Positions 13,618-31,234 of a stretch of DNA of 64,000 nt are shown in pieces. The stretch is from Acutalibacter sp. (GTDB taxonomy: Bacteria > Bacillota > Clostridia > Oscillospirales > Acutalibacteraceae), in contig JAFLRP010000128.1 in the NCBI GenBank assembly GCA_022511515.1, positions 3,851 to 67,850 on the forward strand, written 5' to 3'. Positions within the stretch are counted from its first letter, which is position 1. Each line of letters begins with the position of its first letter. The notes under the pieces are model-generated. The model saw nothing but the letters and a program-made list of their open reading frames with translations. It was not told the origin of the DNA and made no database searches. Position numbers and translations under genes: made by a program.

Positions 13618-13651
13618 ATTGTCTTTTTAATAGACGCAGAGGATAACGAAT

Positions 13652-14698: not shown

Positions 14699-16577
14699 TA
14701 ATTATAGCATTGTAGAGCCGTTAGGTAATCAAGATCGAGACACCAAACTTGAACGATATTGGAAGAGTTTTGAAGGCAAATATGGACTTAGAACATCACG
14801 TATAATTCAATTTGATCCTTACGCTTCAATGTCAAGATCTCCAGTTCAGTATAAACTGGAGAAGTTCAATCTAAATAGGGATATCCCCAGTCAAGAATGG
14901 ATTAGAGACAATTTGAAACAGTTTATTCGAGAAGAGATAATGGTGTCTGCTTCCGAGATACCTCAATATTTTTCTCCCGAAATAGATGGCGAAATAATTC
15001 TTCCAGACGAATATCTTACTGATTTTTTGCATAATAGTGAATGGGATAATTTTTTGAAAGTTGAGCTGCCAAAAGATGATACTGATTCAGAGATGGCTAA
15101 TTGCATTTATAGACTCTTATGCAATCCTCAAATAGGGTCATCGAAAAATGCAGTCAATAACGACGAATCAGAATTTATTAACCACATTCTTCCCTTGATT
15201 GAGCAAAGAAAGCGTCTTCTATTTGTATTACCGGGTTTTCCATTTAAGGACCAGAACAAGTTTCGGGTTCCTTATGATGCGGCTCGCATTGATTTTAGCG
15301 AAATATCTTTCATAATACGTTTGCATAATCTCATTCAATCCTTATATCAAGTTCATCCATTTGGAGCGGAAGCGATCGTACTTTCTGATGGTCGCTTATA
15401 TCAGGATATCTTCTATATAGATCCCATAGAAGTAGAAGAGTACCAATGGAGATTACATGACTATAGAAATAAGCTGAACATTCAGGGGGATGTTTCCATT
15501 ATCGACTTGATGGATTTAATAGAGCGAGCAAATGAAGATGGAGAGATAACAAAATTGATCCAACATCTGGAAACTGTTATTTCAAATGATTATGCGCAAG
15601 AAGATTTTTTTCTTAATCTTATTCAGGGCATGAAATGGAACTTGAATTCAAGAAAGCTTCTCAAAGATTATGATGACATTGATTCATGGAATATAATTAA
15701 GAGTAATCGCTGTGATGTTAGAAGGGATTTGCTTAAAATTTGGAATGATTATCATAATATTGCAAAAGAAGCCGCAGTAAGATATGCGGCTGTTAATCTA
15801 ATGTTGAAGTGGACTGACTTGATTCGGAAATTTTTTCCTGAATCTATTAGGTGTACTGTCCATGCAAAAAAGAATCAATTTGCATTAGCAAAGAGTTACG
15901 CTTGGAATGGTATTGCATGGTCAGAAAGGTGGCCAAAGACATTGAGGGATATTACTACAGTACCATTTTACATGTTAGGAAAGTATGTTAAAGTTAAACT
16001 TGCAACGTTTCAAAGCACGAAGTTTCCTTGCTTTTTTACAACAGAGCGGTATAATCAAAATTTAGATTATGCGAAAAACATTCTTGAAGCAGATGGGTGG
16101 AATGTAGACAATATTTTTGGAAGAGAATTTAACATTTTTGATTTAGCGGAATTTGTTGAACTTGGTAGAGATGATGAAAATTTTGCATGGGAAAAGAAAG
16201 AAATGTCTGAAGAGTACTATAAAGCGCTACTTCAATTCCGCATTGGCCATTATAAAAAGTACGGTTTCGGTGTACATGCTATATTTATGGATGGTAATCT
16301 TATAGGCCAGATGGGATTACAGGTATTAGATGAGCAGAAAAACCAGATAGAATATGTAATCTTTCTCGGAAAAGATTATGTGCATAAGGGAATTGGCTCT
16401 AAACTATTGAAATATTTATTTTCTAGGTGCAAGGAAGAAGGTCTTACGACTGTGTTTGGCGTGATTCGTAGTGATAACGATATTTCAAGACACATTGTGG
16501 AGAAATTCGGAGGGAAAATGGTTAGGACAATGGCTCATTATCATCAATCTGGAGTTTTATATGAGATCGAACTATGA
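14691..16577 (+). CDS. DIT1/PvcA-family (isonitrile synthase / N-formyl-tyrosine family) domain fused to a C-terminal GNAT acetyltransferase
   Basis: LLFVLPGFPFKDQNKF...LYQVHPFGAEAIVLSDGRLYQDIF...EVEEYQ aligns by eye with PvcA IHFVLPAFPAKSPN...YAPGARLTICSDGRVFSD. FPESIRCTVHAKKNQ matches FP..LRLSIHPQ. The GNAT motif A is YVHKGIGSKLL. The start at 14691 has GGAGG 7 nt upstream and overlaps the previous stop by 8 nt. Confidence 0.7.
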   Translation: MADNYSIVEPLGNQDRDTKLERYWKSFEGKYGLRTSRIIQFDPYASMSRSPVQYKLEKFNLNRDIPSQEWIRDNLKQFIREEIMVSASEIPQYFSPEIDGEIILPDEYLTDFLHNSEWDNFLKVELPKDDTDSEMANCIYRLLCNPQIGSSKNAVNNDESEFINHILPLIEQRKRLLFVLPGFPFKDQNKFRVPYDAARIDFSEISFIIRLHNLIQSLYQVHPFGAEAIVLSDGRLYQDIFYIDPIEVEEYQWRLHDYRNKLNIQGDVSIIDLMDLIERANEDGEITKLIQHLETVISNDYAQEDFFLNLIQGMKWNLNSRKLLKDYDDIDSWNIIKSNRCDVRRDLLKIWNDYHNIAKEAAVRYAAVNLMLKWTDLIRKFFPESIRCTVHAKKNQFALAKSYAWNGIAWSERWPKTLRDITTVPFYMLGKYVKVKLATFQSTKFPCFFTTERYNQNLDYAKNILEADGWNVDNIFGREFNIFDLAEFVELGRDDENFAWEKKEMSEEYYKALLQFRIGHYKKYGFGVHAIFMDGNLIGQMGLQVLDEQKNQIEYVIFLGKDYVHKGIGSKLLKYLFSRCKEEGLTTVFGVIRSDNDISRHIVEKFGGKMVRTMAHYHQSGVLYEIEL

Positions 16578-16589
16578 AAGGAGCATATA

Positions 16590-17009
16590 ATGCCTGTTTG
16601 CTATATAACATTATCAGAAATCAAACCAGAACTAACTAACGAAGAAATTCAATGTATAAGAAAAATAGTAGCAAAGGGATTGGATTCGACTTCCAAAAAA
16701 CTTGATGAGACACATATTGTTACACGTACGCATTATTCAAGTCGAGAATCTATGCTAGGTGATATCGAGATTGATATTTTTTCGCAATTATATTTAAGGC
16801 GACTATTCTCAAGAGATAAACGAGCAAACTATATTTCAAAGCAAATTTCGGAATTTTTAGGATGTTGCTGCGCAACTTGGATAAATATGGAGATTGTTGG
16901 TTATTCAAGGGTTGCACTCGACGGTAATGTTTTCTATTCGGACTCCGATAATTTTTTCGTTCGTCTTTTTCAAAGGGTTAGAGGTGTATCTACACACAAG
17001 AACAAGTAG
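16590..17009 (+). CDS. 139-aa protein; possible tautomerase-superfamily member (N-terminal Pro1, two beta-alpha-beta units)
   Basis: MPVCYITLSEIKPELTNEEIQCIRKIVAKGL resembles the 4-OT-type MPxxxIxL...helix pattern. The RBS is AAAGGAG. The functional call is weak. Confidence 0.55.
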   Translation: MPVCYITLSEIKPELTNEEIQCIRKIVAKGLDSTSKKLDETHIVTRTHYSSRESMLGDIEIDIFSQLYLRRLFSRDKRANYISKQISEFLGCCCATWINMEIVGYSRVALDGNVFYSDSDNFFVRLFQRVRGVSTHKNK

Positions 17010-17353
17010 TGAAATTGCATGTCTGGAGATATCTTTCTTTGTGCGCAGTTTTTCTGCATCAACTTATATAAGTCATCTTAATGTTCTAAACTACGAAAAG
17101 TGCTTTTGCTTATCTGCAATAAGAAAAAATGATCCTATGTCTCGGTTTACCAAAAGCGAAGTCCTTCTATTCCTTCTTAAGAATTGCGCAATTCAGATCA
17201 TTTCCCCTATTATTTCTTTGAACAGTATCTATATGAAGATCAATTATTGGAAAAGTCAATGCGTACAATTTATCTGTTCTTTTTGAACCATTTTCTTCAC
17301 CGCTGGTTAGGCCAATTATTTACGTGATGTTAAGTCCTTTCCAAAAACTATAC

Positions 17354-17977: not shown

Positions 17978-18919
17978 TTACGCATCGTGCGAATCCCCCT
18001 TTTCTACTCCGGCCAGATAAATGCGCGTCACATCCAATCGCTCGTGCCCCAGCCACTTGGAAACCTGAAGGCGAGCGTGATTGTCGCTGAAACCCTGCCG
18101 AATCAGAGATTTGTACCACTCCGCCGCACAGGTATGCCTGAGACCGTGAAAGGTCAGCGGACTTGTAGAGTCGGGATCTCGAATCTCCTCCCGATGTACT
18201 GAAATGAAATTCTGCAACTCTCGGATGGCAATGTGGGTATCCTTGCCCTCTGGAACAAAAAGTTTCTGCCCCTGCGGGGTATGGTGCAGAGCGTTTTTCA
18301 GTGTCGTCTTGACCTTTTTGTTGATCGGAATCTCCCGGACTTTTCCGCCTTTTCCTTTGACGGTGATAATCCCGGAGCGCAAAGCCAACCGCGCCGCTGC
18401 GGTGTCGAGCCTCATGCACTCGTGAATTCGCAGCCCGGCGTACCGTGCCATTTTGGCGCAGCCGAGATACTCGTAGTGCTTTCTTTCCTGGCATAAGTCC
18501 AGTAGCTTGACAAATTCCGTCTCACTCCATGTACGGTTCACGCCCCCAAAGCTACGGCGCTCTAACTGGAATTCGTCGTTGCCCGGCACTTCATACCGGG
18601 CGCCTGGGATTTTGTCGTGCCAAAAACGGATCGCTGCCAAATCGGTCTTGATCGTGCTCGCAGCCAGTCCCTTTTCTTGCATTTGGGCGATGTATGCGGA
18701 AAGGTGTCTGCCGGAGAGATTGGAGAGCTTTTGCACTCCGTAGTTTTCTCCGACAAATTTCAGAAAGCGGCAGTAAGCTTCAAAGTACCGCTCCTTTGTC
18801 TTGAAGCTGCCCTGACGGTTGTGCCGGAACAGCTTCTTGGCTTGCTCATAAAGCGTCTGATATCTGTTGCTGATAAAGGTACCTCCTTTTTGATTATGGC
18901 GCACTTTCCCCAGTGACAC
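17978..18919 (-). CDS. tyrosine-type site-specific recombinase/integrase
   Basis: ARYAGLRIHECMRL (Arg I), HGLRHTCAAEW (H-x-x-R) and LGHERLDVTRIYL (His, Tyr nucleophile) are present. Confidence 0.88.
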   Translation of the reverse strand: MSLGKVRHNQKGGTFISNRYQTLYEQAKKLFRHNRQGSFKTKERYFEAYCRFLKFVGENYGVQKLSNLSGRHLSAYIAQMQEKGLAASTIKTDLAAIRFWHDKIPGARYEVPGNDEFQLERRSFGGVNRTWSETEFVKLLDLCQERKHYEYLGCAKMARYAGLRIHECMRLDTAAARLALRSGIITVKGKGGKVREIPINKKVKTTLKNALHHTPQGQKLFVPEGKDTHIAIRELQNFISVHREEIRDPDSTSPLTFHGLRHTCAAEWYKSLIRQGFSDNHARLQVSKWLGHERLDVTRIYLAGVEKGDSHDA

Positions 18920-19755
18920 CGGGACGCCGTTTCCGCCCGGTTTCTGCCGCTGCCCGTTCTGAAATCAGAGGATTTCCCGCTGCTTTTCAGTTGTTTTTCG
19001 GCTCTATCTCTGTCATGACCACCCGGGCGATGTGAAATTGTGAGCTGTTCAGTAAGTACCCCGCCGGGACTTGAAAAAGCCCCTGACCTGTGCGGTCTGC
19101 GGACAGCGCAGCCGGGTGAACCCGGTGATGGGGTGCGCCTTGATGTCCCCTTCGGCGGAAAGGGGACAGGTGGTGATTGCGGACCGAAGCCGCCGCTTCG
19201 GTGCGGATCTGCTGCCAAACAGACCCTATTGATTTTCCGTCCGTCGCGCCTCGCCTGGCACGCAGGGACTTCTTCATAGAAAAGATTTTCATTACTTATC
19301 ACTCCATTCGATTTCTTTCCCGTTCCGAATTGGCAGTTCGGAACACTCGGGACACATAGCAACGCCCCGTACTTCTCAAAAGCACAGGGGCGTTTTTGCG
19401 GAAACTGCACCGTCGTCTGCGAAAATGCGATTCCCTTTCCCACAACAGGCAAGGCGACAGGAGTTTTTCTCGGGTCTAACGATGCGGACGGAGACTCAGA
19501 TTGGCCGGGGAGCGAAAAGGAAACATTCCAGAGGGCGATCCAGTGCCGTGGGTTTCTGCTTTCAGTTCTTGCCGCCAAAAGGCAATTTCATCCGCATATC
19601 ATATCCACTTCTTTCTGCGCAGAAAACAAATTTTGCATTTCCACGCAGCACTTTAGAAAAACAAAAAAGCGCCAGTATCCTGCCGCCAAGGCATAGGTAT
19701 ACTAACGCTTATCTACTAACTTACATGGGCTGCGCAAAAGACACTTCGTGCCTTC

Positions 19756-19841
19756 CTGAAAAAGCCTGCGGCTTTTTCTCATGCAAAACATCTCCTCAGG
19801 ATACTCCGCATTTCTCTGAAAAGCCATGCAGCCTTTTCTCA
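19756..19841 (+). repeat. two 26-nt related inverted-repeat units exactly 60 bp apart
   Basis: CTGAAAAAGCCTGCGGCTTTTTCTCA (19756..19781) and CTGAAAAGCCATGCAGCCTTTTCTCA (19816..19841) share 21/26 positions. The first has a perfect 9-bp dyad GAAAAAGCC/GGCTTTTTC. Confidence 0.5.
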
Positions 19842-20019
19842 GGACGAATGTGCCTCCGCCCTTGCGAGGGGCTTGCGTAATCGCGGTTTTACAATGTCAT
19901 TATAGCAATCGGTTGTTTTTCCGTCAACAAAAATCGTTCGACACAAAATGACTGATCTAGGCTAATGAGGAATTTATGTCTGTATGATTTCATGTAAGAA
20001 CTCGTTTAATCCAATGTTT

Positions 20020-22950
20020 TTATTCCTCAAATTCGCTGAAAGCTTTTATCTGTGTCGAGCCTTGTTCCGTGGGGACGTGAATTGGCGGAGGAACAATTCC
20101 TGAGGAGAAAGCCTGTGCTGTCTTTGGGCAGACACGTCTCACGTCACAATTATCGCACTTCTCTCGACAGGGCCGCATCGGAAAATCATTATCAAGTATG
20201 CAGTCAACTGCCCAGCTAATATTTTCAATTGCTGCTGAAACTGCGGTATCATTAACCGGGATGTTTATTCGGGCGCTTGGACCGCTTTCTTTCAGCAAAT
20301 GGACCGAACCGGTTTTTGCATCTTCTCCTAGAACCTGATTAGCCGCATATGCATATAATTGTACCTGTAAGGACAAATCAATCCAGTCATTGGGAGTATC
20401 ATCGTCTGGGGCATCTAGCGACTTAAAGTCAATAACATGAGAATCGACAATATTACCATGTTCATCGCGTTTGAGTAATAAATCAATGGCACCGGAAACC
20501 ATAGCTTGTCCTATAGTTATCTCAAATCTCGCTTCGTCCTCACGCAATCGCTCAAAATCTGGTGAAAAAGCTGATACATAATTTTGTGCAATTTCCAATG
20601 CACTATTGTATGCCCGTTCATAGGGACCAAGACGCTGAGTTGGATCATTGCTCGGGAAAATGTGCTTAAGATGGAATGTCGATTCAACCAAGGCTGCCAC
20701 TTCTTGCTGTGAGGGGACACTGTCTGGATGCTGCTGGTGTAGACGTTCAATAATGGTGTGCGTTGTAAGACCAAAACCGAACAATTCCGGGACGGCCGGA
20801 TTAAAACCAAATAGCTTCTTCAATTTATATCCCATTGGGCAAACAAGATATTCCTTTATATCTGAATAACTTGTCGGCAGGATCGTTTCATCAATTCTAC
20901 GCTTTTGAACGATATACTCAATATTTTTCGGTAATGCTGGATCAGATGGTACTCCTAAATTATCAATTCTTCTCTTAAAATCAGAGGGAGTCTTAGGTTT
21001 TTGTGCATCAGGTTGCTGGGCTGCACCTGTAATGTATAAGAATCGTTCTGCGCGGGTCATGGCAGTATAAAAGAGTCGCGCTTCATCCTGACGGGTTGTA
21101 CAGTAGGCACCGCGGTCAATCGGGTCAGTCATTAGGGCTGCCGGCAACCAGCCGGAATATGTGCTTCTATCTGATGGGAAACGCCGATTGACAACATCGA
21201 CAATAAATACGACCGGGTACTCCAAGCCTTTCATTTTGTGAATAGTAGAAATCGTGACGGCATCTGGCCGCGCCATCACATCTAAAGTGCTTACATCATA
21301 GCCTGTTTCCGCAACATTTGATAGGAAGTTTAGAATTTCTACATATCTGGATGGAGAATCAATGCTTACATAGACCTTCTCAACATCAAGTATTATTTTA
21401 CTAAACACACCCAAATCACGTAAAACCACATCATCAAAGTGAGATCTCTCTACTCCAAATGCATTTAGGATTTGGTGCAACAATTCTTGCGGATAGACCT
21501 TCCTCCTAGCACCACCAGCGGGAGTATGTATCAACAAGTTCCAATCTGAGATGACCCGTGATAATTTGGTAAAGTCTGCTCTTGGAAAACAATCAATGAT
21601 TTCACTGTCAAATAGTGAGCGCATCGCTTCTCTTGTTGGAGACGGCTCTCGCAATAATTCCATTGTATTGCGTATTGCAACAGCATGAGGCCGCTCAAAT
21701 ATTCCGCCCTCCGCTTCAAGGGTATATGGAATTCCGGCAGCTCTAAGCGCGTTTGAAAATTCAACGTGACGATGGGGAAGATTGTGCGGATTATAACTTC
21801 GCTTAATGGACCGAAATAGTATAGCAAAATCTGCCGGCGTTAATCCTCGTTCCTCACGAACGGTTCCGTCAGCATTATATTCTGTATATTTTGTGCCCAA
21901 TAAATCATGAATCCTTTGGGCCACCCACGATGCCTCTTCGTCCCTTGTTGTAAACCACAAAGAACGAAAGTCTTGGATATTACCATCGCTATGTGAGGAT
22001 GGATTCTTAGTGTACCGGGCCGTGCTTAACTCTTGCTGGATAAATTGATCGGATGCTCTAACGATAGCAGTTGTACTTCGAAAATTGGTACTCAGTATAT
22101 GAATGCTGCTTTGGGGATAACGAGTTTGGAAACTCAAAATGTTGTTTACATCGGCTCCGCGCCATGCGTAAATTGATTGATCATCATCGCCAACAACCAT
22201 GAGTGTGTCTGAGCGATCACGCAGTTGGCGGATAAGGCGTTCCTGCATTGGATTAATATCTTGATATTCATCCACAAATATATGGCGTATGCCATGGAGT
22301 GCCTGATCTATCGCTGGGGAAGCTTGCTCCAATTTCTCAACTGCAAGACGAATCATAAGCGAAAAATCAATGTATTGATCATGATCCAAACTTGTATATA
22401 TTCTTTTCAGCAAGTTGCCAAGCGTTGCATTCTCATGCACTATGTCATCATAGTTCAATGCTTCATCGTTCGCTGTACTCCATGCACTTGAGACTTCACG
22501 TATTGTCGTAAACATTTTAGAATTTCGCTCTGCCCTAATAACACTGAGGCCAAGGGAACGATAACGGGACAGCAAGTACAGTTTTAAGCCATTTTCATCC
22601 AATACTTCAAATTGGCGATATCTAGCATCAACATTTCCTAGTAGATGCTGGCAATATGAATGTATTGTGCCAATATACATTGCTCCCACCAGTGTTTGGG
22701 GTAAGCCGAATTTAGATAGCGCCTCCGATACACGACGTTTAATTGATTCTGCAGCTTTGTCAGTAAATGTAAATGCTACGATTGAATCTGCCGGACACCC
22801 CGTGGCAATAAGGTAGGCTATCCTGAATGCTAATGTTCGCGATTTTCCAGATCCGGCACAAGCTAAACATAGGATATCACGATGGTCATCAAGGACAGCA
22901 AGCCGCTGCTCATCGGTTAAGTAGTGTTCCAAAACTTGCGTTATATCCAT
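20020..22950 (-). CDS. UvrD/Rep-family SF1 helicase fused to a C-terminal Cas4/AddB-type Fe-S PD-(D/E)xK nuclease
   Basis: The helicase motifs are ACAGSGKSRT (I), VDEYQD (II), VGDDDQSIYAWRGA (III), TIHKMKGLEYPVVF (V) and YTAMTRAERFLYI (VI). The nuclease part has GAIDLL, VIDFKS and QVQLYAYA. Cys at LVCPMGY plus CREKCDNCDVRRVC forms a four-Cys staple. Confidence 0.85.
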   Translation of the reverse strand: MDITQVLEHYLTDEQRLAVLDDHRDILCLACAGSGKSRTLAFRIAYLIATGCPADSIVAFTFTDKAAESIKRRVSEALSKFGLPQTLVGAMYIGTIHSYCQHLLGNVDARYRQFEVLDENGLKLYLLSRYRSLGLSVIRAERNSKMFTTIREVSSAWSTANDEALNYDDIVHENATLGNLLKRIYTSLDHDQYIDFSLMIRLAVEKLEQASPAIDQALHGIRHIFVDEYQDINPMQERLIRQLRDRSDTLMVVGDDDQSIYAWRGADVNNILSFQTRYPQSSIHILSTNFRSTTAIVRASDQFIQQELSTARYTKNPSSHSDGNIQDFRSLWFTTRDEEASWVAQRIHDLLGTKYTEYNADGTVREERGLTPADFAILFRSIKRSYNPHNLPHRHVEFSNALRAAGIPYTLEAEGGIFERPHAVAIRNTMELLREPSPTREAMRSLFDSEIIDCFPRADFTKLSRVISDWNLLIHTPAGGARRKVYPQELLHQILNAFGVERSHFDDVVLRDLGVFSKIILDVEKVYVSIDSPSRYVEILNFLSNVAETGYDVSTLDVMARPDAVTISTIHKMKGLEYPVVFIVDVVNRRFPSDRSTYSGWLPAALMTDPIDRGAYCTTRQDEARLFYTAMTRAERFLYITGAAQQPDAQKPKTPSDFKRRIDNLGVPSDPALPKNIEYIVQKRRIDETILPTSYSDIKEYLVCPMGYKLKKLFGFNPAVPELFGFGLTTHTIIERLHQQHPDSVPSQQEVAALVESTFHLKHIFPSNDPTQRLGPYERAYNSALEIAQNYVSAFSPDFERLREDEARFEITIGQAMVSGAIDLLLKRDEHGNIVDSHVIDFKSLDAPDDDTPNDWIDLSLQVQLYAYAANQVLGEDAKTGSVHLLKESGPSARINIPVNDTAVSAAIENISWAVDCILDNDFPMRPCREKCDNCDVRRVCPKTAQAFSSGIVPPPIHVPTEQGSTQIKAFSEFEE

Positions 22951-22968
22951 ACTATTCCCGCCTCCATC

Positions 22969-24402
22969 CTACTGCAAAAAATCAACGAGCTGCGATTTAA
23001 GATCTTCTACATTAGAAGTTTTTATGTCGCATTGCCATATGACAAGATATTGCCACCCTTTTTTTGTGCATTCATCATAATTTCGTTGATCTCTTGCAAC
23101 ATTACTTTGTATTTTTTCGGTCCAAAATTCCTTATTGGTTTCCGGCAAATGACCTCGTTTGCAATTATGCCCATGCCAAAAGCAACCATTAACAAATATG
23201 GCTTTTTTCCTCGAAGGAAAAACTATGTCAGGATGGCAACTAAGTTTCTTAGTTGAAAGACGATATCTATACCCAAGAATAGTCAACAACTTTCGAATAA
23301 ACAACTCTGGAGAGGTGTCTTTGTTTCTGACCCTTTTCATTATTTCAGAGCGCTTTTCCGAATCAAATATATCAGACATAAACACCTCGTCTAACTTTTG
23401 GCGTATTTGGACACTTTGAGCAGAGCAAAAAATCGGAGGCAAAGCGTTGCCAATCATCAGTGCTAAGTTTGTAAGGGGAATGTCTTCAGGGAAAATATAA
23501 TTTTTCCTAAACGTTTGCAATAGAGCAGCCTCTCTGGCCGTAATGCATCTGTTTTCCACAGGATGAAGGAATCGACCTTTAGATGGGTTTAGACATCCGC
23601 CAGTAATGGTTGATGAGACGTCATTCCAACGAAGTCTCCCATATACATCATTAAACCCGACCCCCTCTTTGCGATGGCACTCAAGAGTATATGCATCTGG
23701 AAGATCGCATCGGCTCCCGCCATCAATAGGAATAAGCCGTATTCTTTCCATAACCGCTTCTGAATGATGTGGATACCGGCGATGAACCGGATCAGTGGTC
23801 TCATCAACACTCTGCATTTTTCCAATATAATCTTTAACCGTGTAAAGCTTTGAATTGCCATCTGCAATAGATATATTTCCCAAAAGCGACCCAGTCATGA
23901 CCAGTCGCTTCCTTCGCTGAGGAACCCCATAATTCGCAACATTTACTATCTTATATTGCGGATTGTATCCAAGTTTTTTTAATCGAGTAAACACCCGCTT
24001 AAATAGTGTGTAGTTTTCTATGCCCGGCACGTTTTCCAGCATGATGCAAAGTGGTTGCAATTCCTCAACCATCCTACAATATTCAAGGATAAGACTATTC
24101 CTTGGATCCTTTGATGATTTTTTTCTATTCTTTTTTCTCAGTGATGAAAAACCCTGACAAGGTGGACAGCCTGCCAATAAATGTAAGGGTTCTCCATTTA
24201 GCAACTGAAGGATCTCATCAGACTGCAGTTGTCGAATATCGGTTTCAAACAAGGTGACCCCATTTTGTTCATGGTTAGCGCGGTATGTCTTAGCAGCAAA
24301 ATTATCTATTTCAACAGCAGCGACAACATGAAAGCCAGCGTTTATTAGCCCTTCGGTCATACCACCACAACCTGAGAACAAATCAACAGCATTATATGGC
24401 AT
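22969..24402 (-). CDS. DNA (cytosine-5)-methyltransferase fused to a Vsr-type very-short-patch repair endonuclease
   Basis: The m5C motifs are DLFSGCGG (I), GCPPCQGFS (IV), ENV (VI), QRRKR (VIII) and GNALPP (X). The C-terminal ~140 aa SEKRSEIMKRVRNKDTSPE...PDIVFPSRKKAIFVNGCFWHGH is Vsr-like. It lies 18 nt upstream of the helicase-nuclease, with GGAGG in the gap. Confidence 0.85.
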   Translation of the reverse strand: MPYNAVDLFSGCGGMTEGLINAGFHVVAAVEIDNFAAKTYRANHEQNGVTLFETDIRQLQSDEILQLLNGEPLHLLAGCPPCQGFSSLRKKNRKKSSKDPRNSLILEYCRMVEELQPLCIMLENVPGIENYTLFKRVFTRLKKLGYNPQYKIVNVANYGVPQRRKRLVMTGSLLGNISIADGNSKLYTVKDYIGKMQSVDETTDPVHRRYPHHSEAVMERIRLIPIDGGSRCDLPDAYTLECHRKEGVGFNDVYGRLRWNDVSSTITGGCLNPSKGRFLHPVENRCITAREAALLQTFRKNYIFPEDIPLTNLALMIGNALPPIFCSAQSVQIRQKLDEVFMSDIFDSEKRSEIMKRVRNKDTSPELFIRKLLTILGYRYRLSTKKLSCHPDIVFPSRKKAIFVNGCFWHGHNCKRGHLPETNKEFWTEKIQSNVARDQRNYDECTKKGWQYLVIWQCDIKTSNVEDLKSQLVDFLQ

Positions 24403-24719
24403 GGTTTCACCTCCCCCCGTTTTTTTTACTTAGCGCAAAAATCAAAATAATTATACCACATCTATAGTCCAATGCATAGACTTTTTTGAATTATCTGAGT
24501 TATGGCGATTTTCAACCCTCTTTGCTACATTTAAGATGGGGATGGGTCGAGAAAGGAGGTCATTCTTCAACAGTGGTTCAATGTGGATAGGTTTTTGTGA
24601 AGCCAAAAATGCTATCCGAAAGCTAAAACGATTGGTATTACGGGATTATTAACAAGTTCCTTAAAAAAATCAATGTCCCTCTTGCTTTTTACAGCCCGTG
24701 AATAGGGCCCCTTTTGACC

Positions 24720-25775
24720 TTACAGTGGCCCCTTGTTATGCTTTCGCATGGCAAAAATAACAATAACCGCGGTGTAAAGCAGGACGACACTGAGTGGCAA
24801 AAATAAGGGAATGCCGTTTCCCAGCCAGAGCAGCAGTTTGCTCCCGCAGAGCAGTCCGCTGTGGGTGAAGGACAGGAACGGGGCGTTCCACAGCATGGGA
24901 ACGACTAAGACGCACAACCCGAGGAAAATCATATTGGAGACATTTTTGCCCCAAACGGAACAGCCGAACACCAAGGCGGCAAACAGCAGAGCGGCGGCGC
25001 TGCGATGGAGCAAGCTGAACAGGTATCCCTGCAAAAGGGAAACATCCAAAGTACATTCTGTCATGGCGCTGACAGAATAGATGGGGACATGGGGATCGTT
25101 CAGCCAGCCCCGTAGGGAAAACACGGCAAGTTCCAGTCCGCCGAAAATCAGAGCGGCCATGAGACTTGTCAGCAGCAGGGCAAAGAGCTTTGCCCTGAAA
25201 AGCCGCCCTCTCCCGTTTCTTGCAGACAGCAGTACGGGAAGCATTCCGGCAGAAACTTCCATAGAAAAGCACTGGGCACTGAGCAATAATAAACCGGCGA
25301 TCAGGAAAATATCCGGGAATTGCTGGAGCGTGAAAACCGTCTGCCAGCCGTATTCGTAACTGTAATGAGCGGGGGGCAATTCCGAGGATTGTTCCGAAAA
25401 CTGATCTGCTTTTTCATAGAAAATTTCCGTGGCGTTTTTGTGGAGATAGGCGAGGCTTAATTTCTCCATATAGGCAGACCATTCCTCCTCGGCCAATTCG
25501 CCCCGCCGGTACTGATCTTCCATAAATTCCTGGTTGTTGATGACCGCCTTGCAGTTTTCGTATTCCGCTGTGATCCACGCCGTTTTCTCCGGCGTGTTTT
25601 CCCCTTGAAGCTCCGCAAGGTACTTGTCGTACTGCTTTTGGGAAAGGGCGATTCGGGAATCCTTTATCTCCGGAAAACAGTCCAGAAACAATGCTTTTAG
25701 AAGTAGACACACCAGCAGAATGAGAAGTCCCTTTTGGGTAAGAAGTAGTTTCTTTAATTCGGAACGAAACAGCAT
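24720..25775 (-). CDS. ABC-2-type transporter permease-like membrane protein
   Basis: It has an N-terminal TM, a ~130-aa extracytoplasmic loop and five or more further TMs. It overlaps the upstream permease gene and follows an ABC ATPase gene. Confidence 0.6.
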   Translation of the reverse strand: MLFRSELKKLLLTQKGLLILLVCLLLKALFLDCFPEIKDSRIALSQKQYDKYLAELQGENTPEKTAWITAEYENCKAVINNQEFMEDQYRRGELAEEEWSAYMEKLSLAYLHKNATEIFYEKADQFSEQSSELPPAHYSYEYGWQTVFTLQQFPDIFLIAGLLLLSAQCFSMEVSAGMLPVLLSARNGRGRLFRAKLFALLLTSLMAALIFGGLELAVFSLRGWLNDPHVPIYSVSAMTECTLDVSLLQGYLFSLLHRSAAALLFAALVFGCSVWGKNVSNMIFLGLCVLVVPMLWNAPFLSFTHSGLLCGSKLLLWLGNGIPLFLPLSVVLLYTAVIVIFAMRKHNKGPL

Positions 25776-27025
25776 TATACCACCCGGTCTTTCCGATGGT
25801 ACACCTTAGTTGTAACAATTGCCATTGCCACTGCAAAGATGCTCCATACCAGCGCCAGCACCACAACCCATGGTACGGAAAAGCCGAAAATGTTCGCGTC
25901 ATAGTACCGCTCAAAAAACCGCAGAGGAGAAGATAGTACCAGCGGACCAGCCAGCCATTCCGTTCTCGGTGGAAAGTAGACCGGCAAAAGGAAAAGACCC
26001 AGCAGGAGCGCACCGATACCACAAGAAATGAAACTAGGGCGGCTGAAAGCCGAAACAGACGTTAAGATGGTAGAGAAAAGCATTGCCGTGAAAATCTGAC
26101 AGCAAATGGACAGTAGGAAATATTGCCAAACTTGTATTGAATACGGACACAGAATCAATTGCTCAATCGCTGTCACGGGTTGATCGAATCCTAAAGTACC
26201 CCCCTTAAAATAATATGCGAGTATCGAGAAGACTTGAAGAATCACAGTCAGCACCATGCCAATGAGCCAACCGGAAATGTACTTTGCCAGCAGAGTTTTT
26301 CCCTTACCGTACTTTGCGGTATGTAACAGTAACCAAGTGCGGCGATCATGTTCTCCTGCTACACTTCTGGAAGCAGTCAACAATAGTAGCAGGAATACCA
26401 GCAACATGGCGGGAGATTCAAAAAACAAATCTCCGCCATAACGAATGTAAGTAGTAATTGCTTGTCGGGGAATCGAGTATAGCTGCTCAATACTCTCATT
26501 TTTGCGGACGCCATAGATGTCTTTTTCTAACTCCGCCTCTTGTCGAAAAGATTCAGCCGATTTTAGAACGTTAGATATTTTCTGGTTTGCGGAAGAGTTG
26601 ATTTTTTCTAACATTTCAATATTGGTGAGATACTCATAGTCACTTAGATTGGCAAGCACCCCTGGAACCTGGCGTATTGCATCTGATTCCAGAAAGGTAT
26701 AGTCACTTAACACTGTTTCTCCGTATTTCTCTTTGAGAGCGGCTACGGCTTCAGCATGTTCTTCTTCTGACATAAATTCTATAGAGGCGGATACCTCGCT
26801 CATAATACGGGTAACATTACGTTCTCCGCCCACATATTCAAAAAAAGTTTCAATGTGAGTAGGAGCCTCGTCGCCGACAGAGCGCATGGCATACAAATAT
26901 CCCTGATATTCCGCAATTCCACATTGAGTCAGGAAATTCACTAAAATCGCAACACAGAATACCAGCAGAAAAAATCGGCTTCTCACGGCCTTCTTTAACT
27001 CAAAACAAACTAGAGTTCCCATCAT
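25775..27025 (-). CDS. ABC-2-type transporter permease-like membrane protein with large external loop
   Basis: It has the same topology as the neighbouring permease. It overlaps the ATPase gene by 4 nt. Confidence 0.6.
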   Translation of the reverse strand: MMGTLVCFELKKAVRSRFFLLVFCVAILVNFLTQCGIAEYQGYLYAMRSVGDEAPTHIETFFEYVGGERNVTRIMSEVSASIEFMSEEEHAEAVAALKEKYGETVLSDYTFLESDAIRQVPGVLANLSDYEYLTNIEMLEKINSSANQKISNVLKSAESFRQEAELEKDIYGVRKNESIEQLYSIPRQAITTYIRYGGDLFFESPAMLLVFLLLLLTASRSVAGEHDRRTWLLLHTAKYGKGKTLLAKYISGWLIGMVLTVILQVFSILAYYFKGGTLGFDQPVTAIEQLILCPYSIQVWQYFLLSICCQIFTAMLFSTILTSVSAFSRPSFISCGIGALLLGLFLLPVYFPPRTEWLAGPLVLSSPLRFFERYYDANIFGFSVPWVVVLALVWSIFAVAMAIVTTKVYHRKDRVV

Positions 27026-27912
27026 ACCGCCGCCTCCTTTGAGGTCTCTCGGAAATGGTAGAGGTACAAATCTTCCAGATTGGGTTGGACGGGTACGCCA
27101 AGGGGACAGGAATCCCCCACAATTCGTAGTAGGACTTGTTCTCCCTGACTCTGCACATTGCCCACTAGAGCCTTAGCCTGCCAAGCGGTGACCTCCTTGG
27201 GCGCAACTGCAAGGGAAAATACCTTTCCCACCATGCTTTCCCGCAACGCTTGCGGTGTATCCCGGGCAATGAGCTTTCCCGCCCGCAGCATCAGAATGTC
27301 CTTGGCGATAAATTCAATGTCCGAGACAATGTGGGTGGTCCAGATCACGATTTTGTCCAGCGCCACCGTGGCGATAGTGTTTCTGAGCCGTACCCGCTCC
27401 TGGGGGTCCAGCCCTGCGGTGGGTTCGTCCAAAATCAGGAGCTTCGGGTCGTTTAAGAGGGCTTGGGCAATGCCCAATCTTTGGCGCATGCCGCCGGAAA
27501 ATTCCCCGATCTTCCGCCGTGCGTCCCCTTGGAGGTTTACCGTTTCCAGCAACCGGTCCACGGTAATTCCCAGTTCCTTCTTGCTCAGCTTCATGCCCTT
27601 TACCGCCGCCATATAGCAAAGAAATTCGTCCGCCCGGAAAGATTTGTACAGGGAGGGCGTCTGGGGCTGAAAGCCTAAGATATCCCGAAATCTCCAGTCA
27701 AGAACGGAAATGTCCTCTCCGTCCCATAACACTCTGCCACCAGTGGGTCGCAAAATGCCCGCAATGATATTCACCAGCGTGGTTTTCCCCGCGCCGTTTG
27801 GTCCAAGTAATCCGTGTACGCCCTCGTTTAGGGAGAAAGATACCGTATTAAGCGCCTTACAATTCCGATAGTCCTTTGTGATTTTCTCTACAGAAAGTTC
27901 CATATATAACAT
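27022..27912 (-). CDS. ABC transporter ATP-binding protein
   Basis: Walker A GPNGAGKTT, the signature FSGGMRQR and Walker B LLILDEPTAGLD are present. Confidence 0.9.
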   Translation of the reverse strand: MLYMELSVEKITKDYRNCKALNTVSFSLNEGVHGLLGPNGAGKTTLVNIIAGILRPTGGRVLWDGEDISVLDWRFRDILGFQPQTPSLYKSFRADEFLCYMAAVKGMKLSKKELGITVDRLLETVNLQGDARRKIGEFSGGMRQRLGIAQALLNDPKLLILDEPTAGLDPQERVRLRNTIATVALDKIVIWTTHIVSDIEFIAKDILMLRAGKLIARDTPQALRESMVGKVFSLAVAPKEVTAWQAKALVGNVQSQGEQVLLRIVGDSCPLGVPVQPNLEDLYLYHFRETSKEAAV

Positions 27913-28958
27913 TATCCTTTCCCATCATTCTTGATAAGCTGTATTTTTGCAGAAGCCATTGTATCAGGGGAAATGTTTTCCAGATCAAGCGGAACTGAAA
28001 CAGTATAAAAACTAACACTCTTTGCAGCTTCTAAATCAATCTGAATCGGCAACTGTAGCATTTCTTCCTCTTTTGACACCCAATCGCAATAACGGTAAAC
28101 ATTGCCGTTATATGTAAATGGTGTAAGAACCCCGTCTAGGAGGAGAATAGTCCGATACATTCCGGGTTTCGATGCAACAGCTTCAAAAAGGAAAGAATGA
28201 TTATTATTTATAAGTAATTCTCTTGACCCAATAGAATCGTTTTCTAATACGACATAATTATCTTCCCACAGCCAAGCGTTATAAGCTCCATCTGTATACA
28301 AGCCCTGAAGACCATTTCTTTGCACAACTGTCCCACATAAAGGGTCTGGTACAAGTGGAGTCTTTTCACTTTCATTCTGTATAATTTTTACTGTGTAGCT
28401 GGTCATGTGATAGTCAGACAGAGGGTCCTCATCGTAAAACAATAGAAAATCTAATCTCCCTATGTTTTCACAAAATTCAGGTTCCATTTTAACATCTAAT
28501 TCAGTTTGTTGGTTCGATAGCAAAAGCGGATATTTTGTATAACTGTCGCCATCTATGTCAAAAGCGGTAGGGATTCCATCTGCCAGTATAATCATGTAAT
28601 AGGCCTGTGATTGGTTCAGCCCATTTTGAATAACGACTCTTGCGTTTACTTCCCTACCGTTAATTTTGTATGTATCGCTCTGCAAGTTTTCGGAAGACCA
28701 TTGCTGTTCGTATTCTGAAAGGCTAACCCATATCCCTGCCATCCATTGTACCGCCGGATTTTGAGCTAATTTTCCCATGCCATCTGGCATTCTAAGACCA
28801 CTTTCAGATTCTGAATCATTATTTTTTCCTTCGGTTAGAAAATCCTTGGAAGATGTGACCGAAATTCTTGAAATCGCATTTGTACCTATCGCAATTATTG
28901 CAAAAGAAATGATGAAAACAAAGGTCCAAATCAATATGCTTTCTATTGCTCTTTTCAT
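27912..28958 (-). CDS. membrane-anchored extracytoplasmic protein, unknown function
   Basis: It has a single N-terminal TM (ILIWTFVFIISFAIIAIG). The rest is hydrophilic and beta-rich. It sits in an operon with the ABC genes. Confidence 0.55.
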   Translation of the reverse strand: MKRAIESILIWTFVFIISFAIIAIGTNAISRISVTSSKDFLTEGKNNDSESESGLRMPDGMGKLAQNPAVQWMAGIWVSLSEYEQQWSSENLQSDTYKINGREVNARVVIQNGLNQSQAYYMIILADGIPTAFDIDGDSYTKYPLLLSNQQTELDVKMEPEFCENIGRLDFLLFYDEDPLSDYHMTSYTVKIIQNESEKTPLVPDPLCGTVVQRNGLQGLYTDGAYNAWLWEDNYVVLENDSIGSRELLINNNHSFLFEAVASKPGMYRTILLLDGVLTPFTYNGNVYRYCDWVSKEEEMLQLPIQIDLEAAKSVSFYTVSVPLDLENISPDTMASAKIQLIKNDGKG

Positions 28959-28962
28959 AATG

Positions 28963-30045: not shown

Positions 30046-30124
30046 AATTATCCCCCCAAAAAGTTAAAAAGGAACAAAGAGATTTAATCACACCAAATTT
30101 CTTTGTTCCTTTTTTATTCCTCGA

Positions 30125-30529
30125 CTACGCGTAGACCTTCAAATTAGTCGACCAGTTCCCCCATCTTGTACCTCCCTCAACTTTATGCTGAGAGGTGGCA
30201 TAATAGCCGGATCTTGTCGAGGTTGCTGAATAAGCAGAACTTGTGCCCCTGACGGTAGGATTTGTGTGTTCTAAGCCCGTCGAAGGCACGATGTAAGTAA
30301 AGGTGACATATGTCGTCAGAGATACCCCATCAGTCGTTCCAGCAGTTGTTGTGGCAGTTGCGGAATTTGGATCGACAGTCAAAGAGGCCCAAACGTTTAG
30401 TGTGCCGGATGTTCCAGTAGTGGTGCCGCTTTTTGAGGTGGATCCAGCAAAGGCAGACATGCTGAACGTCAAACAAATAGCGGCTGCCAGAACAGCAGAA
30501 ATAATCCTTTTTGCCATATTCATATGCAT
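30125..30529 (-). CDS. small secreted Thr/Ser/Gly-rich protein
   Basis: The signal peptide AKRIISAVLAAAICLTFSMSAFAGS is clear. Alternative starts lie at 30523 and 30517. I do not recognise a family. Confidence 0.55.
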   Translation of the reverse strand: MHMNMAKRIISAVLAAAICLTFSMSAFAGSTSKSGTTTGTSGTLNVWASLTVDPNSATATTTAGTTDGVSLTTYVTFTYIVPSTGLEHTNPTVRGTSSAYSATSTRSGYYATSQHKVEGGTRWGNWSTNLKVYA

Positions 30530-30780
30530 CTCTCCTCTTTTGAAAAAAGTAATTATTCCGGTTCTTCACCAACCGCAGTACCGGCTGCCTGCGTTCCTTT
30601 CAGAAAAAGGGCTCGGTTGATCATTCCGTTCCCCTGCGGGCTTGTACCCGACCGGCGTCGGCAATCCGCCGATCATATCATAAATGCTTGCCGTGCATTT
30701 ACGAACAACTAGAAAGGTTCATTTTGCAAAGAGAACGTTTCTAAGTCACTATAGATTACCTCTCTAAGCATATATTTTTA

Positions 30781-30805
30781 TTTTTATAATAATTTATTAT
30801 AAAAA
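30781..30805. promoter_or_regulatory. 25-bp palindrome (12-bp perfect arms) in the divergent control region; candidate operator
   Basis: TTTTTATAATAA-T-TTATTATAAAAA sits between the divergent secreted-protein/ABC operon and the padR operon. Confidence 0.35.
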
Positions 30806-31222: not shown

Positions 31223-31234
31223 AGGAGGATCACA

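What the first reader, a model, noticed from the sequence alone, without database searches (positions are those of the whole stretch)
20020..24402. Two-gene module pairing a Dcm-Vsr fusion with a UvrD-type helicase fused to a Cas4/AddB-like Fe-S nuclease: candidate atypical restriction or defence system
The m5C methyltransferase-Vsr gene and the 976-aa helicase-nuclease gene are co-oriented. Only 18 nt separates them, and that gap contains a GGAGG. They lie in a lower-G+C block with no conventional type II endonuclease nearby. The helicase has a full set of SF1 motifs. The C-terminal domain has the RecB-family D / D-x-K / QxxxY motifs plus the four-Cys iron-staple arrangement (one upstream Cys and CxxxCxxCxxxxxC). 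Single-polypeptide helicase-nucleases do act as stand-alone anti-phage or anti-plasmid effectors; Nhi-type proteins and AddAB/AdnAB-like enzymes degrade foreign DNA. Pairing with a methyltransferase suggests self/non-self discrimination by cytosine methylation, with an ATP-dependent translocating nuclease as the restriction arm. I do not recognise this as a named system. Alternatively the two genes are independent: an orphan MTase plus an Nhi-like effector.
Basis: partly seen in the sequence, partly recalled or inferred. Interest (0 to 1): 0.7.

Follow-up and report, generated by a model that had tools for sequence, protein, structure and literature searches.

The report
Cytosine methylase plus helicase-nuclease defence cassette
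Two adjacent genes, a DNA cytosine methylase fused to a mismatch-repair nickase and a RecB/AddA-like helicase-nuclease, form a horizontally transferred cassette that is probably an ATP-driven restriction-modification-type defence; the pairing was predicted by comparative genomics in 2017 but I found no experimental test of it.

Summary
On the minus strand, a 477-aa Dcm-Vsr fusion (22969-24402) lies 18 nt upstream of a 976-aa UvrD-type helicase fused to a Cas4/AddB-like Fe-S PD-(D/E)XK nuclease (20020-22950). A GGAGG sits in the gap, and all catalytic motifs are intact.

The two genes are not independent:
- In 35 of 38 loci encoding close relatives of the helicase-nuclease (46-86% identity, several phyla), an m5C methyltransferase lies directly adjacent. 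The other 3 contigs are too short or break off beside the gene.
- None of 80 control loci around other UvrD-family helicases has one.
- Nucleotide homology to the nearest relatives covers only the two ORFs.
- The two proteins co-diverge (Spearman 0.92).

Vsr is fused, separate or absent, so the helicase-nuclease partners the methylase rather than Vsr. The same methylase family (62-66% identical, similarly conserved target-recognition region) also sits beside DISARM-like helicase+DUF1998 pairs and MORC-like ATPases. It looks like a shared self-marking module with interchangeable ATPase effectors.

This matches the UvrD-Cas4 + Dcm (+Vsr) neighbourhood described by Hudaiberdiev et al. 2017 (PMC5704561). 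I found no experimental study, and PADLOC gave no system-level match. It is a new member of a predicted but uncharacterised kind. Restriction activity is inferred, not shown.

The parts
22969..24402 (-). Dcm-Vsr fusion gene (477 aa + stop): m5C DNA methyltransferase fused to a very-short-patch-repair endonuclease
   Evidence: Pfam DNA_methylase 2.3e-56; TIGR00675 dcm 156 bits (cutoff 100.65); TIGR00632 vsr 145 bits (cutoff 97.85). Motifs I (FSGCGG), IV (PPCQGFS), VI (ENV), VIII (QRRKR), IX and X (GNALPP) are read directly from the translation.
23383..24402 (-). Methyltransferase domain (aa 1-340), including the putative target-recognition region at about aa 173-270
   Evidence: The target-recognition region aligns without indels and is 32-85% identical across 35 relatives (46-85% in 33 of them). 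These relatives include methylases from DISARM-like and MORC-like contexts.
22972..23376 (-). Vsr endonuclease domain (aa 343-477)
   Evidence: Matches E. coli Vsr structure 1cw0 at 8e-25. The FVNGCFWHGHNC motif is present.
22951..22968 (-). 18-nt intergenic spacer with a GGAGG ribosome-binding site (22961-22965), 10 nt before the ATG of the helicase-nuclease
   Evidence: In relatives the M-to-helicase gap is -4 to +57 nt in 34 of 35 loci.
20020..22950 (-). Helicase-nuclease gene (976 aa + stop): SF1A UvrD/AddA-type helicase fused to a Cas4/AddB-like Fe-S PD-(D/E)XK nuclease
   Evidence: AF2 pLDDT 83.9, pTM 0.81. Best PDB fold match is AddA 4cej_A (E 7.9e-31), followed by UvrD, PcrA, RecB and AdnAB.
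21016..22950 (-). Helicase core (aa 1-645; 1A/1B/2A plus a helical 2B at about 380-550)
   Evidence: Motifs I, Ia, II, III, V and VI are invariant.
20116..20883 (-). PD-(D/E)XK nuclease domain with four Cys ligands (aa 690-945)
   Evidence: D823, D841-x-K843, Q862xxxY866, and C704/C932/C935/C941 are invariant in 33 sequences.
20023..20115 (-). Conserved C-terminal tail (aa 946-976, ...PPxIxIP...RAFSxxE), function unknown
   Evidence: P954 and P960 invariant, F971 and S972 at least 90% conserved. Modelled with pLDDT 85-91.
24403..24417 (-). Upstream edge of the transferred cassette. Nucleotide homology to the closest relatives stops here; the downstream edge is the helicase-nuclease stop codon at 20020-20027.
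   Evidence: six related contigs, 74-76% nt identity, matching only window 20020/27 to 24414/17.

Best explanation
The two genes form a self-contained, horizontally mobile modification-restriction-type defence cassette. The Dcm-type enzyme methylates C5 of cytosine in a short motif on host DNA and so marks it as self. Its fused Vsr domain nicks T:G mismatches caused by deamination of those 5-methylcytosines, which limits the mutational cost. The RecB/AddA-like helicase-nuclease is the ATP-dependent effector that unwinds and degrades DNA lacking the mark. The helicase-nuclease has no spare DNA-reading domain. The same methylase family, with a similarly conserved target-recognition region, also serves unrelated ATPase effectors. 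I therefore favour a Type I/III-like logic in which the methylase, bound to an unmodified site, supplies target recognition and recruits or licenses the motor-nuclease. A second possibility is entry at DNA ends or nicks, with methylated motifs acting as an off-signal. Shown here: domain composition and intact catalytic motifs, obligate adjacency, co-divergence, transfer as a two-gene unit, and modular exchange of effector partners. Inferred: anti-phage or anti-plasmid function, sensitivity to methylation, and any physical complex.
For: (1) Adjacency. 35 of 38 loci encoding close relatives of the helicase-nuclease have an m5C methyltransferase immediately adjacent. The 3 exceptions are contigs too short or broken beside the gene. 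None of 80 control loci (926 kb) around other UvrD-family helicases has Dcm or Vsr. Fisher p = 2.5e-30.
(2) Spacing. The gap is -4 to +57 nt in 34 of 35 loci, and many are 4-nt overlaps or abutting genes, which suggests translational coupling.
(3) Co-divergence. Spearman 0.92 over 435 pairs.
(4) Transfer unit. Nucleotide homology to the nearest relatives covers only the two ORFs, and the flanks are unrelated.
(5) Composition and setting. Cassette G+C is 0.425 against about 0.54 for the host-like parts of the window, and a tyrosine integrase lies 1.1 kb away. Other copies sit beside a relaxase and T4SS coupling protein (L120), serine recombinases, PcfJ/PcfK, IS66, and scattered defence genes such as ThsB, HerA, Mrr and methyl-directed REases.
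(6) Asymmetry. The helicase-nuclease clade had the methylase beside it wherever the flanks could be read. Methylases 62-66% identical to this one also sit next to a ~1200-aa helicase + DUF1998/MZB (DISARM DrmA/DrmB-like; L119, L122, L124) or next to MORC-like HATPase_c_3 proteins (L121, L123). Their target-recognition region is about as conserved as the catalytic core.
(7) Wider family. Distant full-length relatives (about 25% identity) lie in operons with a Mod-like methylase and a DEAD helicase.
(8) Literature. The same neighbourhoods were read as defence-related in PMC5704561 and PMC2292703.
(9) Vsr is fused, separate or absent, so the conserved partner is the methylase.
Against: There is no functional data for any member. 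PADLOC gave only generic methylase and GajB/helicase hits and no system-level match. SF1A UvrD/RecB-type motors normally need a nick, a 3' tail or a DNA end, and nothing here explains how intact unmethylated duplex DNA would be attacked. No methyl-sensing or sequence-reading domain is visible in the helicase-nuclease. The fused Vsr and the known UvrD role downstream of nicking enzymes fit a repair reading equally well for this particular locus. The family was not found in IMG/VR viral contigs or on plasmids at close identity, which is neutral. Hudaiberdiev et al. themselves proposed only an 'ancillary' role for the fusion.
Confidence: 0.6

Rival explanations
1. Dedicated repair module. The helicase-nuclease is the excision arm of very-short-patch repair or a related methylation-linked repair pathway. 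Vsr nicks 5' of the mismatched T, the UvrD-type motor loads at the nick, and its nuclease removes the strand. The cassette would then carry a methylase together with the full means of coping with its mutagenic side-effect.
For: Vsr is fused to the methylase here and is present in about 55% of related loci. UvrD-type SF1A helicases load at nicks and act downstream of MutH/MutL, and Vsr interacts with MutL (established knowledge, summarised in PMC2292703). The fold is closest to repair enzymes: AddA, UvrD, RecB, AdnAB.
Against: Vsr is absent from 17 of the 38 loci, including ones with more than 4 kb of flank on both sides (L081, L084, L097, L100), whereas the methylase was beside the gene wherever the flanks could be read. 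The same methylase family partners DISARM-like and MORC-like modules. The wider UvrD-Cas4 family sits in Type III-like R-M operons that lack Vsr. The cassette is mobile and patchily distributed rather than core.
Confidence: 0.13
2. Ancillary processor. The helicase-nuclease does not discriminate self from non-self. It degrades or resects DNA already broken by another nuclease encoded elsewhere, which amplifies restriction or feeds recombination or spacer acquisition. It travels with methylases only because it is useful to R-M systems in general.
For: Hudaiberdiev et al. proposed an ancillary role because the fusion occurs with both Type III Mod/Res and Dcm. In the Type III context a complete Res nuclease is already present. 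RecB/AddA-like architecture implies entry at DNA ends.
Against: In the Dcm-linked clade no other nuclease gene recurs. Clustering of all neighbouring ORFs found only the methylase, Vsr and the helicase-nuclease, and the transferred unit is just the two genes. A generic accessory would not be expected to co-diverge with one methylase lineage at rho 0.92.
Confidence: 0.15
3. Independent genes: an orphan Dcm-Vsr methylase that happens to lie next to a stand-alone Nhi-like helicase-nuclease effector.
For: Neither protein matches a named multi-gene system in PADLOC. Stand-alone helicase-nuclease defence proteins do exist (general knowledge).
Against: Adjacency is 35 of 35 assessable loci against 0 of 80 controls. 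The two genes co-diverge, are tightly coupled in spacing, and share exact transfer boundaries.
Confidence: 0.03

Closest known systems
UvrD-Cas4 fusion + Dcm (+Vsr) gene neighbourhood (Hudaiberdiev, Shmakov, Wolf, Terns, Makarova, Koonin 2017, BMC Evol Biol 17:232; PMC5704561, section on pfam12705, Fig. 6)
   Same: The architecture is the same: a UvrD-like SF1 helicase fused to a PF12705 Cas4-like nuclease, encoded next to a DNA-cytosine methylase, with Vsr in several loci. A defence role was predicted.
   Different: Here Vsr is fused to the methylase. That paper gave no name, no statistics for the Dcm context and no experiments. This analysis adds strict adjacency, co-divergence, exact cassette boundaries, and the sharing of one methylase family with DISARM-like and MORC-like partners.
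AddAB / RecBCD / AdnAB helicase-nucleases
   Same: They share the SF1A UvrD-type motor with a C-terminal RecB-family nuclease. The best structural match is AddA (4cej_A). The Fe-S 'iron staple' Cys pattern resembles that of the AddB nuclease.
   Different: This is a single polypeptide of 976 aa with no partner subunit nearby. Scores are far below the NCBIfam equivalog cutoffs (addA 158 vs 708; recB 107 vs 696). It is linked to a methylase, not to recombination genes.
Type III (and Type I) restriction-modification systems
   Same: The logic is the same: a methylase marks self and an ATP-dependent helicase-like protein with a PD-(D/E)XK nuclease acts on unmarked DNA. Distant UvrD-Cas4 relatives are encoded inside Type III-like operons.
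   Different: The motor here is SF1, not SF2. The methylase is an m5C enzyme, not an N6A/N4C Mod or HsdM. There is no S subunit, and the nuclease carries an Fe-S cluster motif.
Class 2 DISARM (DrmA, DrmB, DrmC, DrmE, DrmMII)
   Same: DISARM uses an m5C methylase (DrmMII) as the self-mark for helicase-based effectors. Methylases 62-66% identical to the one here lie next to helicase + DUF1998 pairs. The window methylase hits DrmMII models (1.8e-43).
   Different: No DrmA/B/C genes are present. The effector is an SF1 helicase-nuclease instead.
MORC/paraMORC + Dcm + Vsr predicted R-M systems (Iyer, Abhiman, Aravind 2008; PMC2292703)
   Same: They use the same Dcm(+Vsr) modification cassette. Methylases 62% identical to this one sit beside HATPase_c_3 proteins.
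   Different: The effector there is a GHKL ATPase, often with SF2 helicases, not a UvrD-type helicase-nuclease.
CglI / NgoAVII ATP-dependent restriction systems (from my own knowledge; not checked with a tool)
   Same: An m5C methylase plus Vsr is combined with an ATP-hydrolysing helicase-like restriction component.
   Different: Those systems use a PLD-family nuclease with a B3-like DNA-binding domain and a separate SF2-type ATPase. No such proteins are present here.
Gabija GajB and Nhi
   Same: Both are UvrD/SF1 helicase-based defence proteins. The helicase half hits GajB models (4.7e-53).
   Different: There is no GajA partner. The hits cover only the helicase part. Nhi was not among the best PADLOC hits, and from my own knowledge its nuclease is N-terminal.

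Membership tests
UvrD-Cas4 / Dcm / Vsr neighbourhood (PMC5704561) | UvrD-like SF1 helicase fused to a PF12705 Cas4-like nuclease | tested here: met
   Pfam UvrD-helicase 8e-54, UvrD_C 2.2e-26, PDDEXK_1 (PF12705) 8.3e-20; TIGR00372 cas4 matches 809-942 at 1.9e-7.
UvrD-Cas4 / Dcm / Vsr neighbourhood (PMC5704561) | Four conserved Cys of the Cas4/AddB Fe-S cluster plus RecB nuclease motifs | tested here: met
   C704, C932, C935, C941, D823, D841, K843, Q862 and Y866 are invariant in 33 sequences. Cluster binding itself cannot be tested here.
UvrD-Cas4 / Dcm / Vsr neighbourhood (PMC5704561) | Adjacent DNA-cytosine methylase, often with Vsr | tested here: met
   The window has an 18-nt gap. 35 of 35 assessable related loci have an adjacent methylase, and Vsr is present in 21 of 38.
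AddAB / RecBCD / AdnAB | Orthology to AddA/RecB (NCBIfam equivalog cutoff) and a partner subunit gene (AddB, RecC/RecD, AdnA/B) | tested here: not met
   addA_Gpos 157.7 bits vs cutoff 707.65; recB 106.5 vs 696. No partner gene is present in the window or recurs in relatives.
Type III R-M | Mod (N6A/N4C beta-class methylase) plus Res (SF2 helicase-nuclease) | tested here: not met
   The methylase is PF00145 m5C and the motor is SF1. No Mod or Res is adjacent. Only distant relatives at about 25% identity have that context.
DISARM class 2 | drmA (helicase), drmB (DUF1998) and drmC (PLD) together with drmMII | tested here: not met
   Only the methylase hits DrmMII models. Neighbouring genes are ABC-2 transporter components, a membrane protein and an integrase.
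Druantia type II | DruM together with DruE, DruF and DruG | tested here: not met
   The methylase hits a DruM model at 5.5e-80, but no DruE/F/G-like genes are adjacent.
Gabija | GajA (ATPase-TOPRIM/OLD nuclease) adjacent to GajB (UvrD helicase) | tested here: not met
   GajB-model hits are restricted to the helicase part. No GajA-like neighbour is present.
Nhi | Match to Nhi profiles and Nhi domain order | tested here: inconclusive
   No Nhi model is among the 25 best of 60 PADLOC hits, but the remaining 35 were not displayed. The statement about domain order rests on my own knowledge.
Classical Type II R-M | A separate sequence-specific endonuclease next to the methylase | tested here: not met
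   No REase profile hit in neighbours. The upstream ORF is a membrane protein. The cassette boundary excludes the neighbours. Caveat: Type II REases are too diverse for a negative profile search to be conclusive.
Functional restriction-modification system (any type) | Methylation of a defined motif protects DNA from cleavage by the partner nuclease | not testable with these tools
   This needs methylome data and in vivo or in vitro restriction assays.

The most novel reading that the evidence does not exclude
The cassette may be the minimal form of a distinct class of ATP-dependent restriction-modification system. In it, a C5-cytosine methyltransferase would act as the target-recognition subunit for an SF1 (RecB/AddA-like) helicase carrying an Fe-S PD-(D/E)XK nuclease. 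That would be the first restriction enzyme built on an SF1 motor and an iron-sulfur nuclease. It would also be one of at least three interchangeable effector modules (with DISARM-like DrmAB and MORC-like ATPases) that plug into the same Dcm(+Vsr) self-marking module.
Probability: 0.3. Interest if true: 0.7.

Novelty: new member of a known kind. Interest (0 to 1): 0.42.

Why it matters
If the prediction holds, this two-gene cassette would be a very compact, tractable model for an open question. That question is how methylase-linked ATPase defence systems (DISARM, BREX, MORC-type) tell unmethylated from methylated DNA and convert that into DNA destruction. It would also give a function to many 'orphan' Dcm-Vsr genes, and it would add an SF1-motor, Fe-S nuclease enzyme to the restriction enzyme repertoire. 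One methylase family with a similarly conserved target-recognition region serves three unrelated effector modules, which points to a plug-and-play organisation of modification-based immunity that can be tested directly. The association itself has been published as a computational observation since 2017, so the value lies in the experimental opportunity rather than in the discovery of the pairing.

Tried and rejected
- The genome-contig scan with the full-length alignment chose generic UvrD motifs and returned only relatives at 30% identity or less. It was useless for the close family but I reused it as a negative control.
- Megablast of the cassette against E. coli genomes and plasmids found nothing. 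tblastn against plasmids found only distant relatives at about 25% identity.
- The IMG/VR viral scan with the nuclease-domain alignment found nothing, so there is no evidence that the cassette is phage-borne.
- PADLOC gave only generic methylase, DruM, DrmMII and GajB hits.
- I could not infer the methylase target. PDB sequence matches (DNMT1, HaeIII, HhaI) cover mainly the catalytic core, and E. coli-type Dcm matches only residues 3-171. k-mer analysis of the window shows CCWGG (O/E 0.38), CGCG, GGCC and CAGCTG depleted, but none of this can be tied to this methylase.
- The promoter and terminator scan was not clearly above shuffled background. No tRNA marks an integration site.
- Clustering all neighbouring ORFs for a third conserved gene found only shadow ORFs.
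- In 5 loci the helicase-nuclease ORF is split while the methylase is intact. I considered this a sign of toxicity, but it is not statistically distinguishable from assembly errors given the gene lengths.
- One look-up (P0217) returned no record.
- Four literature searches for an experimental characterisation found none.

Full report
**Observation**

Both genes lie on the minus strand of the window. The upstream ORF (22969-24402, 477 aa) is a C5-cytosine DNA methyltransferase fused to a Vsr mismatch endonuclease. Pfam gives DNA_methylase 2.3e-56 over residues 4-323 and Vsr 2.4e-29 over 343-416. NCBIfam dcm and vsr both exceed their curated cutoffs.

Its TAG stop is followed by the 18-nt spacer 'gatggaggcgggaatagt' and then the ATG of a 976-aa ORF at 20020-22950. 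That protein has a UvrD/PcrA-type SF1 helicase N-terminal part (UvrD-helicase 8e-54, UvrD_C 2.2e-26). Its C-terminus is a PF12705 PD-(D/E)XK domain (8.3e-20) that also matches Cas4 weakly.

In an alignment of 33 homologues at 56-88% identity, the following are invariant:
- Helicase: motifs I, Ia, II, III, V and VI.
- Nuclease: D823, D841-x-K843 and Q862xxxY866.
- Cysteines: C704, C932, C935 and C941.

The cassette has 42.5% G+C against about 54% in the host-like parts of the window. The 100%-identical database protein is annotated as coming from an Acutalibacter sp. MAG. No restriction endonuclease profile matches any neighbour. The ORF directly upstream is a multi-pass membrane protein of an ABC-2 transporter operon.

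**Are the two genes a unit?**

I collected loci that encode close relatives of the helicase-nuclease in two ways. One was exact look-up of diverse homologues: Brevibacillus, Pedobacter and an unnamed 4.3-Mb genome. The other was a metagenome scan seeded with an alignment of the family-specific nuclease domain, which gave 34 loci at 46-83% identity.

Profile searches of all ORFs in these 38 loci gave the following:
- An m5C methyltransferase lies immediately next to the helicase-nuclease in 35 loci.
- The other three contigs are too short or break off beside the gene.
- The methylase is usually upstream on the same strand. It is sometimes divergent and sometimes downstream.
- The gap is -4 to +57 nt in 34 of 35 cases.

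As a control I used the 80 loci from a scan that had latched onto generic UvrD motifs. These cover 926 kb around other UvrD-family helicases and contain no Dcm or Vsr gene. Fisher's exact test gives p = 2.5e-30.

Three further results point the same way:
- Methylase and helicase-nuclease identities co-vary (Spearman 0.92 over 435 pairs).
- The six closest relatives are 74-76% identical at the nucleotide level. Homology to the window runs only from 20020/20027 to 24414/24417, which is the two ORFs and nothing else. The flanks are unrelated.
- Clustering of all neighbouring ORFs found no further recurrent gene.

The pair is a unit of inheritance and of horizontal transfer.

**Which partner matters?**

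Vsr varies across the family. It is fused to the methylase in the clade containing the window. It is a separate small gene in Pedobacter-like and several metagenomic loci. It is absent from 17 of the 38 loci, including some with several kilobases of flank on both sides. The conserved partner of the helicase-nuclease is thus the methylase, not Vsr.

The reverse test was informative. I started from the methylase domain alone and looked up six homologues at 62-66% identity that carried no information about the helicase:
- One lies beside a UvrD-PDDEXK gene on a conjugative element (L120).
- Three lie beside a ~1200-aa helicase plus a DUF1998/MZB protein, the DrmA/DrmB-like core of DISARM (L119, L122, L124).
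- Two lie beside MORC-like HATPase_c_3 proteins (L121, L123).

Across all these contexts the putative target-recognition region (residues 173-270) aligns without indels and is about as conserved as the catalytic core. This suggests one shared or very similar specificity. The pattern is asymmetric. The effector had the methylase beside it wherever the flanks could be read, whereas the methylase has several alternative effectors. That is what one expects if the methylase is a self-marking module and the helicase-nuclease is one of several dangerous effectors that cannot be carried without it.

**The helicase-nuclease itself**

An AlphaFold2 model built from 33 sequences is confident (pLDDT 83.9, pTM 0.81). 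Its best PDB matches are AddA of AddAB (4cej_A, E 7.9e-31), then UvrD, PcrA, RecB, AdnA/B and AddB. Sequence-based PDB search gives the same set.

The chain is fully accounted for:
- Helicase core, including a helical 2B domain (1-645).
- Nuclease domain (690-945).
- A short conserved C-terminal tail.

No spare domain is left that could read a DNA sequence or a methyl group. The protein is not an orthologue of AddA or RecB, because its scores fall far below the NCBIfam equivalog cutoffs.

A full-library search with the nuclease domain found only 32 representatives at E <= 1e-30 among 1.84 billion 50%-identity clusters. Only a few of those were full-length at 44% identity or more. The Dcm-linked clade is therefore small and tight, yet it occurs in Bacillota, Bacteroidota and others. 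That fits recent horizontal spread.

Distant full-length relatives at about 25% identity, on Blastomonas and Athalassotoga plasmids and in a deltaproteobacterial MAG, lie in operons with a Mod-like methylase. The two plasmid operons also carry a DEAD-box helicase.

**Context**

In the window a tyrosine integrase lies 1.1 kb downstream (17978-18919). A census of 80 neighbouring proteins from 12 other loci found serine recombinases, PcfJ/PcfK and an IS66 transposase. It also found scattered defence genes (ThsB-like TIR, HerA, methyl-directed REases, a Type I S subunit) and ordinary housekeeping genes. L084 has an Mrr-like nuclease and a large SF2 helicase nearby. This fits a mobile cassette that inserts in varied places, often in defence or mobile-element neighbourhoods.

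**Comparison with what is known**

The literature search found that this pairing has already been described computationally. Hudaiberdiev et al. 2017 (PMC5704561) reported the following:
- The largest branch of PF12705 is a monophyletic UvrD-Cas4 fusion.
- It occurs in two conserved contexts: Type III Mod/Res, and Dcm, often with Vsr.
- They concluded that the fusion is a component of 'multiple microbial defense systems', perhaps in an ancillary role.

Iyer, Abhiman and Aravind 2008 (PMC2292703) had described Dcm + Vsr recurring with MORC/paraMORC ATPases and SF2 helicases in predicted R-M systems.

I found no paper with experiments on the UvrD-Cas4/Dcm pair. PADLOC gave only generic methylase and GajB-type hits. 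The locus fails the membership tests for AddAB/RecBCD, Type III R-M, DISARM, Druantia II, Gabija and classical Type II R-M. It meets every defining feature of the 2017 neighbourhood.

**Mechanism**

The best-supported explanation (confidence 0.6) is an ATP-dependent, R-M-type defence. Dcm marks self, and the fused Vsr repairs T:G mismatches arising from deamination of the marks. The RecB/AddA-like Fe-S helicase-nuclease destroys unmarked DNA.

Within that explanation I favour the methylase acting as the recognition or recruitment subunit, as in Type I/III systems. My reasons are that the effector has no reading domain, that one methylase specificity serves three unrelated effectors, and that the genes are often translationally coupled. 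The alternative is entry at DNA ends or nicks with methylated motifs acting as an off-signal. For DISARM, methylation as an 'off switch' has experimental support (bioRxiv 10.1101/2021.12.28.474362).

Rival explanations are a dedicated excision arm for VSP repair (0.13), a non-discriminating post-cleavage processor (0.15) and independent genes (0.03). None of the functional steps is shown. The weak point of the favoured model is that SF1A motors normally need a nick or an end to load.

**Verdict**

The feature is real and robustly linked, and it is probably a defence cassette. It is an instance of a neighbourhood already published as a prediction, here with Vsr fused to the methylase. It is worth experimental follow-up as a minimal model of methylase-guided ATPase immunity, but the pairing is not new. 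Interest 0.42; novelty: new member of a known (predicted, uncharacterised) kind.

Noticed in passing
L119 3132-6437, L122 2944-6452, L124 3070-6023; L121 3332-6441, L123 2603-6038: Methylases 62-66% identical to the window's Dcm, with a similarly conserved target-recognition region, sit next to a ~1200-aa helicase plus DUF1998/MZB (DISARM DrmA/B-like) or next to MORC-like HATPase_c_3 proteins. One methylase family appears to serve at least three different effector modules.
   Followed up: partly
L082 8929-10431 and L120 9132-10635: An unannotated 343-aa protein plus a ~155-aa Fic-domain protein follows the helicase-nuclease in both a Pedobacter genome and an unrelated conjugative-element contig. 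This may be an accessory pair or a linked toxin module.
   Followed up: no
L085, L103, L114, L115, L116: The helicase-nuclease reading frame is split into 2-3 ORFs while the adjacent methylase is intact. This could be decay of a toxic restriction gene or an assembly error. It is not statistically separable from chance given the gene lengths.
   Followed up: partly
window 1-64000: Several short palindromes are strongly under-represented relative to a maximal-order Markov expectation: CCWGG (O/E 0.38), CGCG (0.52), GGCC (0.59), CAGCTG (0.09, 2 observed vs 23 expected). This is consistent with past or present R-M pressure but was not assigned to any enzyme.
   Followed up: partly
window 8173-9450 (-): A DUF4143/AAA_14 ATPase matches the PADLOC candidate defence family PDC-S01 at 1e-108.
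   Followed up: no
window ~9000-17300: A low-G+C island (35-39%) encodes a class-V aminotransferase (12475-13617), a PvcA/DIT1-like domain fused to a GNAT acetyltransferase (14673-16577), a TrmB/Abi_alpha-like protein (11822-12472) and several ORFs with no family match. This may be a horizontally acquired small-molecule biosynthesis cluster.
   Followed up: no
window 17978-18919 (-) and 18920-20019: A tyrosine recombinase/integrase lies 1.1 kb downstream of the cassette. The stretch between them has no convincing ORF (the 151-aa ORF at 19425-19880 looks non-coding). No tRNA gene is present anywhere in the window.
   Followed up: partly
window 24720-31645: An ABC-2-type transporter operon (ATPase 27022-27912, permeases 25775-27025 and 24720-25775, DUF5050 protein 28963-30045) lies next to a divergent PadR regulator (30857-31222) and a DUF6120/HAAS protein (31235-31645). 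It is also of lower G+C than the rest of the window.
   Followed up: no
L125 6947-14363 (Blastomonas pBSY18_4), L126 6191-15052 (Athalassotoga pATS1) and L001 4585-9977: Distant UvrD-PDDEXK fusions (about 25% identity) head operons that continue with a Mod-like methyltransferase. In L125 and L126 a DEAD/DEAH helicase follows as well. This three-gene arrangement is also uncharacterised experimentally as far as I could find.
   Followed up: partly
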